From the IMG/VR virus record IMGVR_UViG_3300005397_000053: a stretch of DNA of 14,207 bases. The stretch is one strand, 5' to 3'. Under the pieces are notes generated by a model. It had not been told where the DNA came from. It made no database searches and saw only the letters and a program-made list of their open reading frames with translations. A program made the position numbers and the translations under genes. This document shows, piece after piece, positions 9,882 to 11,869 of the stretch (position 1 is the first letter of the stretch; every line of letters begins with the position of its first letter). This DNA comes from a virus (lineage: Duplodnaviria > Heunggongvirae > Uroviricota > Caudoviricetes).

Positions 9882-9904
9882 ATATGTACCTCCGGTGTAC
9901 ATAT
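9882..9904. promoter_or_regulatory. Operator-like palindrome 1 in the cohE/croE divergent region
   Basis: ATATGTAC ctccggt GTACATAT: perfect 8 bp inverted repeat. Confidence 0.55.
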
Positions 9905-9932
9905 TACATGATTGAAATGAACCTTCAAGATA

Positions 9933-9953
9933 CTTGTACCTTAACGGTACAAG
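9933..9953. promoter_or_regulatory. Operator-like palindrome 2 in the cohE/croE divergent region
   Basis: CTTGTACC ttaac GGTACAAG: perfect 8 bp inverted repeat sharing the TGTACC core with palindrome 1. Confidence 0.55.
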
Positions 9954-9968
9954 GGTTTTAATTTCGTT

Positions 9969-10643
9969 ATGAAAACAATCCATGACATCCGGCGGTCTAA
10001 CGCCAGAAAACTGAGAGATGGTGTTGGCGGGAATTCTTCCTTTGCCACTATGATTGATCGCGAGCCAACCCAGACCAGCAGGTTTATGGGAGATGGTGCT
10101 ACTAAAAATATCGGTGACAGCATGGCACGACACATCGAAAAATGTTTCGACCTGCCTGTAGGATGGCTCGATCAAGAACACCAGACAACGAACATCACAA
10201 AAAAACCTGATGTTTCAATCACTAATAAACAAATCACATTAGTCCCTGTCATATCATGGGTACAGGCCGGAGCATGGAAAGAAGTTGGATATTCTGAGGT
10301 TGATTTGAGCACAGCAGAAACGTATCCCTGCCCTGTACCCTGTGGGGAAATGACTTATATCTTGCGGGTAATAGGTGATTCAATGATTGATGAGTACCGC
10401 CCGGGAGACATGATTTTTGTCGATCCTGAAGTACCTGCCTGCCACGGTGACGACGTTATTGCATTGATGCACGATACAGGTGAAACCACCTTCAAAAGGT
10501 TGATAGAAGATGGGACACAGCGTTATCTCAAAGCGTTAAACCCAAACTGGCCTGAGCCTTACATTAAGATCAACGGTAATTGCTCTATAATTGGTACTGT
10601 GATTTTCTCAGGAAAACCAAGAAGATACAAAATCAAAGCCTAA
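9969..10643 (+). CDS. cohE: CI-like prophage repressor with C-terminal LexA/S24 autopeptidase domain
   Basis: 224 aa. S24-type signature (VIGDSM...GDMIFVD...) in the C-terminal half; positioned as the immunity repressor. Confidence 0.8.
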   Translation: MKTIHDIRRSNARKLRDGVGGNSSFATMIDREPTQTSRFMGDGATKNIGDSMARHIEKCFDLPVGWLDQEHQTTNITKKPDVSITNKQITLVPVISWVQAGAWKEVGYSEVDLSTAETYPCPVPCGEMTYILRVIGDSMIDEYRPGDMIFVDPEVPACHGDDVIALMHDTGETTFKRLIEDGTQRYLKALNPNWPEPYIKINGNCSIIGTVIFSGKPRRYKIKA

Positions 10644-10655
10644 TCAATGTTTATG

Positions 10656-10678
10656 AACCTGCTTCGGCAGGTTTTTTT
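10656..10678 (+). terminator. Rho-independent terminator downstream of cohE
   Basis: cctgc ttcg gcagg followed by ttttttt, directly after the cohE stop. Confidence 0.8.
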
Positions 10679-10682
10679 ATAC

Positions 10683-10710
10683 TTGACAATGTACCTTTGA
10701 GATACATAAT
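10683..10710 (+). promoter_or_regulatory. Sigma70-like promoter with embedded operator half-sites, driving ymfJ and possibly xis-int
   Basis: TTGACA (10683-10688), 16 bp spacer, CATAAT (10705-10710). Two ATGTACC copies (10689-10695 and 10708-10714) match the operator core of the cohE/croE region. Confidence 0.5.
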
Positions 10711-10817
10711 GTACCCAAGAGAAACAACAAACAGGCAGGACGCCCACGAAGTAGCCCGCCCGGTACGTACGAAGACCGGGATGATTCGTTAGCGGATGAT
10801 TTCAGTGGAGAGAATAG

Positions 10818-11126
10818 ATGAATGAGCAGAATTTGAAGCATGTGATCGCATTGTTGCTGGAAGACGCTAAACGTTTGCAGCAGATAGAGCCAAATGCAGG
10901 CACTGAGGCCCGCATTTTGTTAGCAAAACAGGCATTAAAGACTTGCGGGGCGCAAGCCCCTGGTCGAACCGAGTTCATGAATTTCATGGCTAACACACTC
11001 ACCCCTCTGCCATGCAATGGAGAGAAGGTGAGCCGTGTTTATCACGACACAATGGTTAAGGCTTTAAGAATCGAGCTTGATGGGCTTAGGCGTAAGATCG
11101 TAATGAACGAAATCGTTACCAACTAA
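10818..11126 (+). CDS. ymfJ: Hypothetical protein, no recognisable domain
   Basis: 102 aa ORF, first gene downstream of the promoter at 10683. 3' end overlaps ymfI convergently by 63 nt. Confidence 0.6.
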   Translation: MNEQNLKHVIALLLEDAKRLQQIEPNAGTEARILLAKQALKTCGAQAPGRTEFMNFMANTLTPLPCNGEKVSRVYHDTMVKALRIELDGLRRKIVMNEIVTN

Positions 11127-11405
11127 GGAAGCAGACGGAAGTAAGCATGCGCTTTGTTCAAATTTACAGACAAATATATTTGCGTCAACACCGGCACTGT
11201 TAGCAATTGAAAATGTTTGATCAAGGATTTGTTGGCAGTTCATTGTACTTTTGAGGATATATCCCTCTGGAATCAGTCTGCAGCAGCTATCGTCAGACTC
11301 TTTAACTGTTTTCTGGTACAGAAAGTTAAGCATTAATTCTTCAAATTTTTTGGTCTGTTCGGCTGTGTCTTCAAATAGACGAACGTGAACATAAAACTGG
11401 TTCAT
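11064..11405 (-). CDS. ymfI: Hypothetical protein, no recognisable domain
   Basis: 113 aa from the ATG at 11403-11405 (MNQFYVHVRLFEDTAEQ), preceded by an AGGAAAC Shine-Dalgarno-like sequence. The track ORF adds 15 upstream codons. Confidence 0.55.
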   Translation of the reverse strand: MNQFYVHVRLFEDTAEQTKKFEELMLNFLYQKTVKESDDSCCRLIPEGYILKSTMNCQQILDQTFSIANSAGVDANIFVCKFEQSACLLPSASLVGNDFVHYDLTPKPIKLDS

Positions 11406-11521
11406 TAAGTTTCCTTGCTTGCTGGCTGTGTGAGAACTCCAGCATACCACCGAGCCTGAAGTGGTGAAAAGACAGGCACATAACAGCTAAGTATTTTCAA
11501 CCAGAGAGAATCCTTAGCGTT

Positions 11522-11833
11522 GTGGTGAATGCGGCTCAGCGCACGCGGGTTAAGGTTGAGGCTGACAATCGACCTTCTGTGGATACCCACCCGCCTGGTG
11601 TGCAACCTTCGCCAGGCACCGGGGGCACCCGACACCACAACTTTATGCTGTGTGTAGTCTTGGCGGTACCAGTTTTTTCCTTAGTCCTTTCTGGTACCGC
11701 CCTTTTTACAAAACAGAGAAGAGTATCCCCGGATGACGGGTTAATAACCCGACCCATCCTGATAGCTGTGGCCACAGGTGCTCTTCTCTGTTTTGTGGAG
11801 AAACTAACCGACCGTGCAGGGTCGATATGCTGA
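11522..11833 (+). CDS. Doubtful ORF (GTG start, no clear RBS) encoding a putative two-TM peptide; may correspond to K-12 ymfH. The region may instead be a structured RNA or regulatory DNA.
   Basis: 103-codon ORF with hydrophobic stretches, but the DNA is unusually rich in nested perfect inverted repeats (see findings), which argues for a structural or regulatory role. Confidence 0.25.
   Translation: MVNAAQRTRVKVEADNRPSVDTHPPGVQPSPGTGGTRHHNFMLCVVLAVPVFSLVLSGTALFTKQRRVSPDDGLITRPILIAVATGALLCFVEKLTDRAGSIC
11662..11707 (+). terminator. Strong stem-loop followed by a T-tract (candidate terminator or attenuator upstream of xis)
   Basis: GGCGGTACCAG, a 18 nt loop, CTGGTACCGCC (perfect 11 bp stem), then cttttt. 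Confidence 0.45.
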
Positions 11834-11869
11834 GACTAAGCAGTTAGTGTAGTAATAAGGTGATCGCAT

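What the first reader, a model, noticed from the sequence alone, without database searches (positions are those of the whole stretch)
10683..11405. Orphan convergent gene pair ymfJ/ymfI behind an operator-bearing promoter
Two small ORFs of unknown function (102 and 113 aa) converge with a 63 nt 3' overlap in the interval between the repressor gene and xis-int, where lambdoid phages often carry accessory cargo. ymfJ is preceded by a near-consensus sigma70 promoter containing two ATGTACC copies identical to the operator core in the cohE/croE region, which suggests it is repressor-controlled and switched on at induction. The convergent overlap implies mutual antisense interference. Neither protein shows a motif I recognise. 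A role in superinfection exclusion, a toxin/antitoxin-like pairing, or control of excision are all open.
Basis: partly seen in the sequence, partly recalled or inferred. Interest (0 to 1): 0.55.

Follow-up and report, generated by a model that had tools for sequence, protein, structure and literature searches.

The report
Swappable prophage gene pair behind P_L
ymfJ and ymfI of the E. coli K-12 e14 prophage are a real two-gene cassette that moves as a unit: ymfJ is the first gene behind the repressor-controlled early-left promoter, and ymfI is an oppositely oriented gene whose protein distantly resembles the GhoS antitoxin RNase, which is a first functional lead but no proof of function.

Summary
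ymfJ (10818-11126, +) and ymfI (11064-11405, -) converge with a 63-nt overlap. ymfJ follows a TTGACA-16-CATAAT promoter whose spacer holds a 19-bp operator like the two in the cohE/croE interval. This is e14's equivalent of lambda P_L/O_L. Published data show ymfJ induced late in SOS together with ymfM and intE, while ymfI rises only weakly.

The pair is not an orphan. All 37 viral contigs that carry ymfI carry an intact convergent partner with a 63-nt (34 loci) or 72-nt (3 loci) overlap, next to several different repressors and integrases. Both genes are under purifying selection.

The cassette sits in a variable slot between a conserved structured leader and a conserved 'ymfH' RNA-like region. 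Sibling phages such as SfV carry other convergent pairs in that slot.

The function remains inferred. The most likely reading is an accessory cassette with a lysogen state and an induced state. A type V-like toxin/antitoxin pair is possible but unproven.

The parts
10655..10674 (+). Intrinsic terminator of cohE (ymfK), immediately upstream of the ymfJ promoter
   Evidence: 8-bp GC-rich stem followed by a T run. It is conserved in B1172, TW14425 and SfV. SfV annotates the same element as a terminator.
10683..10710 (+). Early-left (P_L-like) sigma-70 promoter of ymfJ: -35 TTGACA 10683-10688, 16-nt spacer, -10 CATAAT 10705-10710
   Evidence: Matches 11 of 12 consensus positions. The sequence is nearly identical in SfV (one spacer base differs) and conserved in other cohE-type prophages. 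ymfJ is induced late in SOS together with other e14 genes.
10689..10707 (+). O_L-type operator ATGTACCTTTGAGATACAT inside the promoter spacer. An extra ATGTACC half-site lies at 10709-10715 and overlaps the -10 hexamer.
   Evidence: One of only 3 TGTAC-N7-GTACA sites (at most 1 mismatch) in the window, against 0.43 expected. A relative with an 87%-identical repressor has a perfect palindrome here.
9884..9953 (.). Reference operators in the cohE/croE interval: ATGTACCTCCGGTGTACAT (9884-9902) and CTTGTACCTTAACGGTACAAG (9933-9953)
   Evidence: cohE mRNA is reported to be leaderless, like lambda cI. CohE carries a Peptidase_S24 domain.
10734..10788 (+). Conserved structured 5' leader of the P_L transcript: small hairpin 10734-10744, outer helix 10747-10750/10785-10788, inner hairpin 10759-10763/10776-10780 with a 12-nt loop
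   Evidence: The leader is conserved next to different immunity regions, upstream of different cassettes, and in 44 phage records including SfV, SfII, SfIV, ST64B, mEp237 and ZF40. The inner stem shows compensatory changes (CG, UA and GC at one pair). The e14 sequence folded alone is not significant (z = -0.9).
10818..11126 (+). ymfJ CDS (102 aa; RBS GGAGAG 10807-10812). It has an N-module (aa 1-42), a variable linker (43-57) and a C-module (58-102).
   Evidence: phrog_12693. dN/dS is about 0.1 in the N-module, 0.3-1.1 in the middle and 0.7-1.7 in the overlap. The predicted structure is all-helical with pTM 0.28. The modules recombine with other modules.
11064..11405 (-). ymfI CDS (113 aa; RBS AAGGAAA at 11410-11416 on the - strand). 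It has a GhoS-like ferredoxin-fold core (aa 1-82) and a conserved C-terminal tail (aa 89-113).
11064..11126 (.). 63-nt convergent dual-coding overlap (YmfJ aa 83-102 and stop; YmfI aa 94-113 and stop)
   Evidence: The overlap is 63 nt in 34 and 72 nt in 3 of 37 related loci. The YmfI frame is the more constrained one. No terminator-like hairpin was found between the genes.
11406..11480 (-). Conserved ymfI upstream block with an inferred promoter: -35 TTTTCA 11465-11470, 18-nt spacer, TG-extended -10 TATGCT 11441-11446
   Evidence: About 75 nt upstream of ymfI are nearly invariant in all loci, while the sequence further upstream differs. The hexamers were parsed. The site is below the consensus-scan threshold (8 of 12, not listed), so the promoter is inferred and not shown.
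10790..11446 (.). Extent of the swappable ymfJ/ymfI cassette between the conserved flanks
   Evidence: Three-way alignment with B1172 and TW14425. The cassette is present in 303 of 5426 E. coli genomes, always at 80% or more of its length with both genes, while its flanks occur in about 2400 genomes. The ymfI half has the lowest GC (0.38) in the region.

Best explanation
ymfJ/ymfI is a mobile two-gene accessory cassette. It sits in the variable slot directly behind the early-left promoter (the P_L/O_L equivalent) of e14/SfV-type lambdoid prophages, and it has a lysogen state and an induced state.

Lysogen state:
- Shown from sequence: the LexA-like repressor CohE has a 19-bp operator in the spacer of a near-consensus promoter, placed just after the cohE terminator. 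Bound repressor would occlude RNA polymerase.
- Inferred: ymfI is transcribed independently from its own weak TG-extended -10 promoter in the opposite direction. No terminator separates the genes, so its transcript runs antisense into ymfJ. YmfI is therefore the lysogen-state product.

Induced state:
- Shown in published transcriptomes and proteomics: after SOS-triggered CohE self-cleavage the promoter fires late, at the same time as the P_R-side gene ymfM and as intE, and YmfJ protein appears.
- Inferred: P_L transcripts cross ymfI antisense and enter the structured 'ymfH' RNA region. Some read through to xisE-intE.

The proteins:
- YmfI is a small acidic protein. Its ferredoxin-like core is remotely related to GhoS, the type V antitoxin endoribonuclease (moderately supported). 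Its 25-residue tail is conserved, predicted disordered, and partly encoded on the opposite strand of ymfJ's 3' end.
- YmfJ is a basic helical protein built from shuffled modules.
- The two genes behave as one functional unit (shown by co-inheritance). Sister phages replace the unit with other convergent pairs, so it serves an accessory role, host-directed or anti-phage, rather than a core phage role (inferred).

My estimates for the individual steps: P_L/O_L identity 0.85; cassette in a hotspot 0.9; YmfI a GhoS-fold homologue 0.6; antisense coupling that matters biologically 0.4; YmfI an RNase 0.2.
For: Promoter, operator and terminator. The operator is a perfect palindrome in L042. The same control region occurs in phage SfV. 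CohE has a Peptidase_S24 domain and a leaderless mRNA like lambda cI.

Expression: ymfJ log2FC 4.8 late in SOS together with ymfM and intE, and YmfJ protein detected. ymfJ 4.76 against ymfI 1.82 in a second study. ymfJ clusters with xisE and ymfL and belongs to the YmfT iModulon. ymfI-ymfJ is in the core convergent excludome.

Co-inheritance: 37 of 37 loci have intact pairs with a 63- or 72-nt overlap, next to repressors that are 100%, 87%, about 41%, about 35%, about 30% identical or undetectable, and next to different integrases. In E. coli, 303 of 303 hits hold both genes.

Selection.

Slot and alternative convergent cassettes.

YmfI and GhoS.

Remote YmfI relatives are also antisense to their neighbours, and in four of five contexts end-overlapping, within early-left operons. 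Their partners share modules with YmfJ-type proteins.
Against: - No experiment addresses either protein's function.
- ymfI rises about 4-fold rather than falling when P_L fires. This argues against simple mutual exclusion, unless the libraries were unstranded or the signal is antisense read-through.
- The ymfI promoter is weak by consensus (8 of 12) and no TSS data could be retrieved.
- YmfI itself gives no Pfam hit. hhalign against GhoS is weak (P = 0.005).
- The ferredoxin fold is very common, and no Foldseek hit reaches E = 0.001.
- GhoS R28 aligns with Glu22 in YmfI (R28's importance is taken).
- Part of the linkage between ymfI and the YmfJ C-module could simply reflect their physical overlap.
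- PADLOC finds nothing.
Confidence: 0.55

Rival explanations
1. A type V-like toxin/antitoxin or RNA-control pair. YmfI would be a GhoS-like sequence-specific endoribonuclease that destroys leaky ymfJ/P_L transcripts in the lysogen. YmfJ, through its C-module, would be the harmful or host-takeover effector released when P_L out-transcribes ymfI.
For: - ymfI is strictly linked to the YmfJ C-module across three different N-modules, and in a relative only about 52% identical that lacks the tail.
- The pair is acidic (pI 4.9) and basic (pI 9.1).
- A paper states that both genes were once scored essential in MG1655, although the whole of e14 can be deleted. That pattern is seen with antitoxins.
Against: - The residue reported as most important for GhoS activity, R28, aligns to Glu in YmfI.
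- YmfJ has no membrane segment and is unlike GhoT. No GhoT-like ORF lies downstream of ymfI.
- The gene order and orientation differ from ghoST.
- If ymfJ were the toxin, a ymfJ knockout should not be lethal, so the 'both essential' report looks like a small-target artefact.
- No toxicity data were found.
Confidence: 0.17
2. Two functionally unrelated genes. ymfJ would be an ordinary early-left gene and ymfI an independent lysogeny-expressed moron, for example an exclusion or defence factor. The overlap and the co-inheritance would be by-products of tight packing.
For: - The forward-gene modules recombine freely with other partners. The ELKHV N-module occurs in many proteins that have no ymfI nearby.
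- One remote YmfI relative converges on an unrelated methyltransferase gene without overlapping it.
- ymfI has a lower GC content than ymfJ.
- The last 20 codons of ymfJ evolve almost neutrally.
Against: - Convergent end-overlap with the upstream P_L-direction gene recurs in relatives that are only 23-30% identical to YmfI.
- It also recurs in the two unrelated cassettes that occupy the same slot.
- No locus carries ymfI alone.
- The YmfJ C-module stays with ymfI well beyond the 63 overlapping nucleotides.
Confidence: 0.23
3. YmfJ is a core regulator of the early-left operon: an N-like antiterminator acting on the conserved leader, a cIII-like factor, or a regulator of excision.
For: - It occupies the first-gene position behind P_L, just after a conserved structured leader.
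- Homologues of its N-module sit between the repressor gene and kil in several phages.
Against: - YmfJ has no arginine-rich motif and no hit to the Pfam N-peptide or lambda cIII families.
- A related locus has a separate N_peptide gene upstream of the pair.
- SfV and other phages with the same promoter, leader and downstream genes lack ymfJ altogether, so it cannot be essential for the operon.
Confidence: 0.05

Closest known systems
Lambda P_L/O_L early-left control region; closest real relative is the cI-cro region of Shigella phage SfV
   Same: - The repressor gene is followed, in the same direction, by a terminator and then a strong promoter whose core holds an operator of the same type as those between the repressor and cro genes.
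- The repressor is RecA-cleavable (S24 domain) with a leaderless mRNA.
- Transcription runs toward xis-int.
- SfV has nearly the same promoter, operator and leader sequence (one spacer base differs).
   Different: - Only one full operator plus a half-site is visible, instead of lambda's three.
- The operator consensus, ATGTACC-N5-GGTACAT, is specific to CohE/SfV cI.
- No N gene was recognised. The leader hairpin has a 12-nt loop, unlike boxB.
GhoS (YjdK), the type V antitoxin endoribonuclease of E. coli (PF11080, PDB 2LLZ)
   Different: - YmfI itself scores nothing against PF11080.
- The R28 equivalent is Glu in YmfI and His in the remote relatives.
- YmfI has an extra conserved 25-residue tail.
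- The partner is a convergent, soluble helical protein, not a co-directional membrane peptide like GhoT.
- YmfI is phage-borne and antisense to an early operon.
Phage morons and prophage accessory hotspots next to the immunity region (lambda rexAB/sieB; Rac sieB, which is antisense to its neighbours)
   Same: A self-contained unit sits between conserved phage segments and is replaced by unrelated cargo in sibling phages. The gene is oriented against the lytic operon and is presumably expressed in the lysogen. Its GC content is lower. sieB-ydaF of Rac appears in the same excludon list as ymfI-ymfJ.
   Different: This unit is always a convergent, end-overlapping pair, one member of which is driven by P_L itself. 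No exclusion or defence activity is known, and PADLOC gives no match.
Excludons (convergent overlapping transcription units)
   Same: The coding regions overlap by 63 nt with no terminator between them. The pair is listed in the core E. coli MG1655 excludome.
   Different: Mutually exclusive expression has not been shown. ymfI rises modestly when ymfJ is induced.
The dicB operon of prophage Qin (dicA - promoter - ydfABC - dicF - dicB ... intQ)
   Same: A repressor gene is followed by a repressed early-left operon with small ORFs of unknown function and then an embedded structured RNA. The e14 'ymfH' region gives sub-threshold but full-length Rfam matches to DicF and STnc100.
   Different: The matches are below the gathering scores (28.5 against 48 bits; 29.2 against 47 bits). 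No antisense-oriented GhoS-like gene is known in Qin.

Membership tests
Lambdoid P_L/O_L early-left promoter | Lies downstream of the immunity repressor gene, in the same orientation, pointing toward xis-int | tested here: met
   The order is cohE 9969-10643, terminator 10655-10674, promoter 10683-10710, ymfJ, then xisE 11870 and intE 12096, all on the + strand.
Lambdoid P_L/O_L early-left promoter | Carries operator(s) of the same type as those between the repressor and cro genes, overlapping the core promoter | tested here: met
   There are 3 TGTAC-N7-GTACA sites in the window: two in the cohE/croE interval and one in the promoter spacer, against 0.43 expected. A relative has a perfect palindrome at this position.
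Lambdoid P_L/O_L early-left promoter | De-repressed when the repressor is inactivated (SOS) | tested here: met
   This rests on the literature only. ymfJ is induced late in SOS with ymfM and intE, in hupAB mutants with xisE and ymfL, and by an SOS-inducing antibiotic conjugate. Direct CohE binding has not been shown.
GhoS family (PF11080, type V antitoxin endoribonuclease) | Sequence scores above the Pfam gathering threshold | tested here: inconclusive
   YmfI has no hit. Relatives retrieved with the YmfI profile score 28.8 bits (P0161) and 24.2 bits (P0157) against a threshold of 21. Six of 22 family members list GhoS, the only family hit by more than two of them. An HMM built from the remote clade scores YmfI at 48.9 bits.
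GhoS family (PF11080, type V antitoxin endoribonuclease) | GhoS/Cas2-like ferredoxin fold | tested here: met
GhoS family (PF11080, type V antitoxin endoribonuclease) | Catalytic Arg28, reported as the most important residue | tested here: not met
   In three alignments R28 pairs with Glu22 of YmfI, and with His of the LHEKM motif in remote relatives. All three alignments are of low confidence.
GhoS family (PF11080, type V antitoxin endoribonuclease) | Co-transcribed small membrane toxin (GhoT-like) whose mRNA is the target | tested here: not met
   No co-directional ORF with transmembrane character lies downstream of ymfI. YmfJ is soluble, with a maximum KD hydropathy of 0.31 over 19 residues.
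GhoS family (PF11080, type V antitoxin endoribonuclease) | Endoribonuclease activity | not testable with these tools
   This needs purified protein and RNA substrates.
Moron / prophage accessory hotspot cargo | Lies between conserved flanks and is replaced by unrelated genes in sibling phages | tested here: met
   Alignment A1. SfV, B1172 and TW14425 carry different cargo. The flanks occur in about 2400 E. coli genomes and the cassette in 303.
Moron / prophage accessory hotspot cargo | Has its own promoter and terminator and is expressed from the repressed prophage | tested here: inconclusive
   A conserved 75-nt upstream block carries a TG-extended -10, but it is below the consensus threshold and no TSS data were found. 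No clear terminator was found for ymfI.
Excludon | Overlapping convergent transcripts | tested here: met
   The CDS overlap is 63 nt with no intervening terminator. The pair is listed in at least 50% of 58 MG1655 transcriptomes.
Excludon | Mutually exclusive expression | tested here: not met
   When ymfJ rises (log2FC about 4.8), ymfI rises too (1.8-2.0). The strandedness of those data is unknown.
Known anti-phage defence systems (PADLOC 2.0) | HMM match to a catalogued defence protein | tested here: not met
   No hits were found for YmfJ, YmfI, YmfH, their remote relatives or the alternative cargo.

The most novel reading that the evidence does not exclude
YmfI-family proteins and their convergently overlapping partners would be an unrecognised, widespread phage-borne relative of type V toxin-antitoxin systems. 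A GhoS-like RNase, encoded antisense at the head of the early-left operon, would cut P_L transcripts in lysogens. It would act as a post-transcriptional safety catch on induction, or as an abortive-infection trigger. Overprinting of its conserved tail on the partner's 3' end would lock the two genes together.
Probability: 0.15. Interest if true: 0.7.

Novelty: new member of a known kind. Interest (0 to 1): 0.45.

Why it matters
ymfJ and ymfI belong to the uncharacterised 'y-ome' of the best-studied bacterium. ymfJ is one of the most strongly SOS-induced transcripts that LexA does not control. Three things follow from this analysis.

1. A concrete regulatory assignment. The promoter is P_L/O_L of e14, and the predicted CohE operator ATGTACC-N5-GGTACAT can be tested with a single reporter fusion.
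2. The first homology lead for YmfI. It has a GhoS-like fold, and GhoS belongs to a toxin/antitoxin class with very few known members.
3. A P_L-proximal slot in SfV/e14-type prophages that repeatedly holds convergent, end-overlapping gene pairs. If these turn out to be defence or toxin/antitoxin modules, the slot is a new place to look for such systems.

If they do not, the result is an ordinary accessory cassette, now properly described.

Tried and rejected
Searches that found nothing or little:
- Rfam at gathering thresholds found nothing in the window.
- Pfam, PADLOC and NCBIfam gave no functional family for YmfJ. YmfI matched only name-only families.
- tblastn of YmfI against 50,697 GenBank phage records found no match.
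- The genome-contig scan returned only two K-12-like loci.
- Profile searches of the YmfI family against PDB sequences found nothing useful.
- hhalign of the family against GhoS alone is weak.
- BFVD Foldseek gave only generic hits.
- Alternative cargo proteins and partner modules have no Pfam or PADLOC assignment.

Searches that could not be run or completed:
- The afdb50 fold library was unavailable.
- No fold search was run on YmfJ, because its model is extended helices with pTM 0.28 and would give meaningless matches.
- Mehta et al. 2004, the primary e14 analysis, is not held.
- No TSS table listing ymfI or ymfJ could be found in held supplements.

Ideas considered and rejected:
- A LexA box at the promoter. 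The operator is TGTAC-N7-GTACA, not CTGT-N8-ACAG.
- YmfJ as an N or cIII analogue. It has no arginine-rich motif and no family hit, and it is dispensable in SfV.
- ymfI as a spurious ORF. Its dN/dS is 0.09-0.19.
- A GhoT-like peptide hidden antisense to ymfJ. None is convincing.
- A second copy of the leader on the P_R side, which would have been nutR-like. None was found.
Full report
**Identity and observation.** The window is the E. coli K-12 e14 prophage, matching MG1655 at 100%. RefSeq annotates, in window orientation:
- ymfT/croE (-)
- ymfK/cohE (9969-10643, +)
- ymfJ (10818-11126, +)
- ymfI (11064-11405, -)
- ymfH, xisE and intE (+)
- lit (-)

**Promoter and operator.** The promoter TTGACA-16-CATAAT at 10683-10710 matches 11 of 12 consensus positions. 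It starts nine bases after the cohE intrinsic terminator (10655-10674).

ATGTACC occurs at 9884, 10689 and 10709. The functional unit is better described as a 19-bp palindrome. TGTAC-N7-GTACA with at most one mismatch occurs exactly three times in 14.2 kb, against 0.43 expected. Two sites lie between cohE and croE, and one fills the promoter spacer. In a relative whose repressor is 87% identical, the promoter site is the perfect palindrome ATGTACCCCAAAGGTACAT.

**What the promoter is.** Four features define a lambda-type P_L/O_L:
- The repressor is LexA-like, with a Peptidase_S24 domain and a reportedly leaderless mRNA, as for lambda cI.
- The repressor gene is followed by a terminator.
- Next comes an operator-bearing promoter in the same orientation.
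- Transcription points toward xis-int.

Shigella phage SfV carries nearly the same terminator, promoter, operator and leader (one spacer base differs) downstream of its cI.

Published data fit this reading:
- ymfJ is induced late in SOS (log2FC 4.8), together with ymfM and intE. The authors attribute this to the cI-like repressor rather than to LexA, and YmfJ protein was detected.
- ymfJ clusters with xisE and ymfL in hupAB mutants.
- ymfJ reaches 4.76 against 1.82 for ymfI under an SOS-inducing antibiotic conjugate.
- ymfJ belongs to the 'YmfT iModulon'.

Direct CohE binding has not been shown.

**The pair is a cassette in a variable slot.** I aligned e14 with two E. coli prophages that carry the same cohE. 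The left flank is conserved through the promoter and a roughly 70-nt leader, up to about 10790. The right flank is conserved from about 11447. Everything between differs.
- The flanks occur in about 2400 of 5426 complete E. coli genomes.
- The ymfJ/ymfI cassette occurs in 303 genomes. Of these, 285 are at least 99% identical and are evidently K-12 derivatives; only 18 fall in the 95-99% band. Every hit covers at least 80% of the cassette.
- The alternatives in the slot are also convergent, end-overlapping pairs. TW14425 has a 68-aa forward ORF against a 144-aa 'ECs1072 family' reverse gene, with a 29-nt overlap. SfV and B1172 have orf33 against an unannotated 81-aa reverse ORF, with an 83-nt overlap.

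**The pair is conserved and both genes are real.** A scan of IMG/VR with YmfI returned 37 loci.
- Every locus has an intact 112-113-aa ymfI and an intact convergent partner. The overlap is 63 nt in 34 loci and 72 nt in 3.
- The neighbouring repressors are 100%, 87%, about 41%, about 35%, about 30% identical to CohE or undetectable, and the integrases differ too.
- In each locus I inspected, the partner lies in the early-left direction from a cI-like repressor gene. It is the first gene after the repressor in L030, L035 and L011. In L040 two other ORFs intervene.
- dN/dS against e14 is 0.09-0.19 for non-overlapping ymfI, about 0.1 for the YmfJ N-module and 0.3-1.1 for the YmfJ middle.
- Inside the overlap, dN/dS is 0.18-0.54 in the YmfI frame and 0.7-1.7 in the YmfJ frame. 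YmfI therefore dominates the dual-coding stretch.

**YmfJ.** The protein is basic (pI 9.1), has no membrane segment, and is predicted to be four helices without a compact fold (pTM 0.28). It is modular.
- The N-module, aa 1-42 (ELKHVIALLLEDAKRLQQxEPNAGTEARI...), is almost invariant in hundreds of small proteins that have unrelated C-termini. One is a 42-aa stand-alone version. They sit between the repressor gene and kil in Cronobacter, Serratia, Shigella/Stx and other phages.
- The C-module, aa 58-102 (ITPLPCxGxxVxRVYHDTMVKALRIEL...), is the part that always travels with ymfI. It occurs behind three different N-modules: ELKHV, MEFKDLP and MESPKEP.
- No Pfam, NCBIfam or PADLOC family matches.

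**YmfI.** The AF2 model has a confident beta-alpha-beta-beta-alpha-beta core (aa 1-82, pLDDT 82-92) and a low-confidence tail. The tail is nevertheless nearly invariant in sequence (LPSAxLVGNDF...). About 20 of its residues are encoded on the opposite strand of ymfJ's 3' end.

Evidence linking YmfI to GhoS:
- Foldseek ranks GhoS third, with the best TM-score among the leading hits, but no hit reaches E = 0.001.
- The family is tiny. A full HMMER pass over 1.84 billion representatives gave only 16 hits.
- Among those hits are relatives of about 92 aa that lack the tail. Two of them pass the Pfam GhoS gathering score (28.8 and 24.2 bits against 21).
- GhoS is the only Pfam family hit by more than two of the 22 family members; six hit it.
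- An HMM built only from the remote clade scores YmfI at 48.9 bits. It scores E. coli GhoS at 5.0 bits in the right register, with an empirical p of about 0.0025.

Evidence against full membership:
- YmfI itself has no Pfam hit.
- GhoS R28, reported as the key residue, aligns with Glu22 of YmfI.
- There is no GhoT-like partner.

I therefore call YmfI a probable remote GhoS-fold homologue. I do not call it a GhoS orthologue or a demonstrated RNase.

**The architecture is a family trait.** I inspected five contexts of remote YmfI relatives that are 23-52% identical. In all five the gene is antisense to its neighbours in a phage-like gene cluster. In four of them that cluster is recognisably the early-left operon. 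In those same four it overlaps the 3' end of the gene that converges on it, by 4, 13, 14 and 44 nt. In the fifth, the convergent neighbour is a methyltransferase gene 49 nt away. Three of those partners share the MKFxDLP N-module, and one also has the YmfJ C-module. This recurrence is the strongest argument that the convergent arrangement is functional rather than accidental.

**Expression of ymfI.**
- The 75 nt upstream of ymfI are nearly invariant in all loci, while the sequence further upstream differs.
- This block contains TTTTCA-18-(TG)-TATGCT. That is a plausible but weak extended -10 promoter, below the scan threshold.
- No terminator lies between the genes, so the ymfI transcript should run antisense into ymfJ, and P_L transcripts should run antisense across ymfI.
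- ymfI-ymfJ is in the core MG1655 'excludome'.
- ymfI rises about 4-fold when ymfJ is induced. Mutual exclusion is therefore not demonstrated.

**Mechanism I commit to (confidence 0.55).** The pair is an accessory cassette at the head of the e14 P_L operon.
- In the lysogen, CohE on O_L keeps ymfJ silent, and ymfI is expressed from its own promoter.
- After RecA-mediated CohE cleavage, P_L fires, YmfJ is made, and transcription crosses ymfI antisense toward the 'ymfH' RNA region and xis-int.
- The two products act as a unit in an accessory role, host-directed or anti-phage.

Rivals:
- A type V-like toxin/antitoxin or RNA-control pair (0.17).
- Two unrelated genes packed together (0.23).
- YmfJ as a core antiterminator, cIII-like factor or excision regulator (0.05). 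This is disfavoured because SfV lacks the gene.

A remark in the literature says both genes were once scored essential. Whole-e14 deletions are viable, and the genes are small targets, so I give the remark little weight.

**Novelty and score.** The following were already known: the genes themselves, the SOS induction of ymfJ, the cI-like repressor and the excludon listing. As far as the held literature shows, the following are new:
- the explicit O_L assignment
- the cassette and hotspot description, with recurring convergent pairs
- the strict co-inheritance across immunity types
- the modular anatomy of YmfJ
- the GhoS link for YmfI

I rate it as a new member of a known kind, with interest 0.45. 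The most novel reading that the evidence does not exclude is a phage-borne type V-like module, with probability 0.15.

Noticed in passing
window 11441-11834 (annotated ymfH, 11522-11833 +): The 'ymfH' region looks like a structured non-coding RNA rather than a gene. It is about 90% conserved in more than 2000 E. coli genomes, where it is often annotated 'hypothetical, frameshifted'. Its RNA fold has z = -6.7. It gives full-length but sub-threshold Rfam matches to STnc100 (11489-11710; 29.2 bits against 47) and to DicF (11649-11702; 28.5 bits against 48). It ends in an 11-bp hairpin plus a T run at 11664-11710. The same element is present in SfV, SfIV, ST64B and phiES15, and a 32-nt stretch matches phage P1. 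It may be a DicF-like or c4-like RNA embedded in the P_L operon upstream of xis-int.
   Followed up: partly
window 10734-10788: The leader of the P_L transcript is a conserved module in its own right. It occurs downstream of quite different promoters and operators, upstream of different cassettes, and in 44 phage records. Its inner hairpin shows compensatory base changes. It could be a nutL- or put-like site, or a processing site. No second copy was found in the window.
   Followed up: partly
L049 (phage SfV NC_003444) 2809-3054, - strand: An unannotated 81-aa reverse ORF overlaps the 3' end of SfV orf33 by 83 nt. The slot in TW14425 likewise holds a 68-aa forward ORF overlapping an 'ECs1072 family' reverse gene. 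All three cassette types in this slot are convergent overlapping pairs.
   Followed up: partly
window 9933-9953 and 9969: The perfect palindrome CTTGTACCTTAACGGTACAAG lies 16 nt upstream of the cohE start codon, and the cohE mRNA is reported to be leaderless. This operator should therefore overlap the cohE promoter, which suggests autoregulation as at lambda P_RM.
   Followed up: no
proteins P0089 and P0101 (133 aa, E. coli): The MEFKDLP module and the ELKHV module of YmfJ-type proteins occur fused in one common 133-aa E. coli prophage protein. The small proteins encoded at the head of these early-left operons are therefore a mosaic family built from at least three interchangeable modules.
   Followed up: partly
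window 11100-11400: The ymfI half of the cassette has the lowest GC content in the region (0.38), against 0.46-0.48 for ymfJ and 0.52 for the ymfH region. This hints that the two halves of the cassette have different origins.
   Followed up: no
literature: A paper states that ymfJ and ymfI were reported as essential in MG1655 in early transposon and essential-gene compilations, although complete e14 deletions are viable. This is either a small-target artefact or context-dependent essentiality.
   Followed up: no
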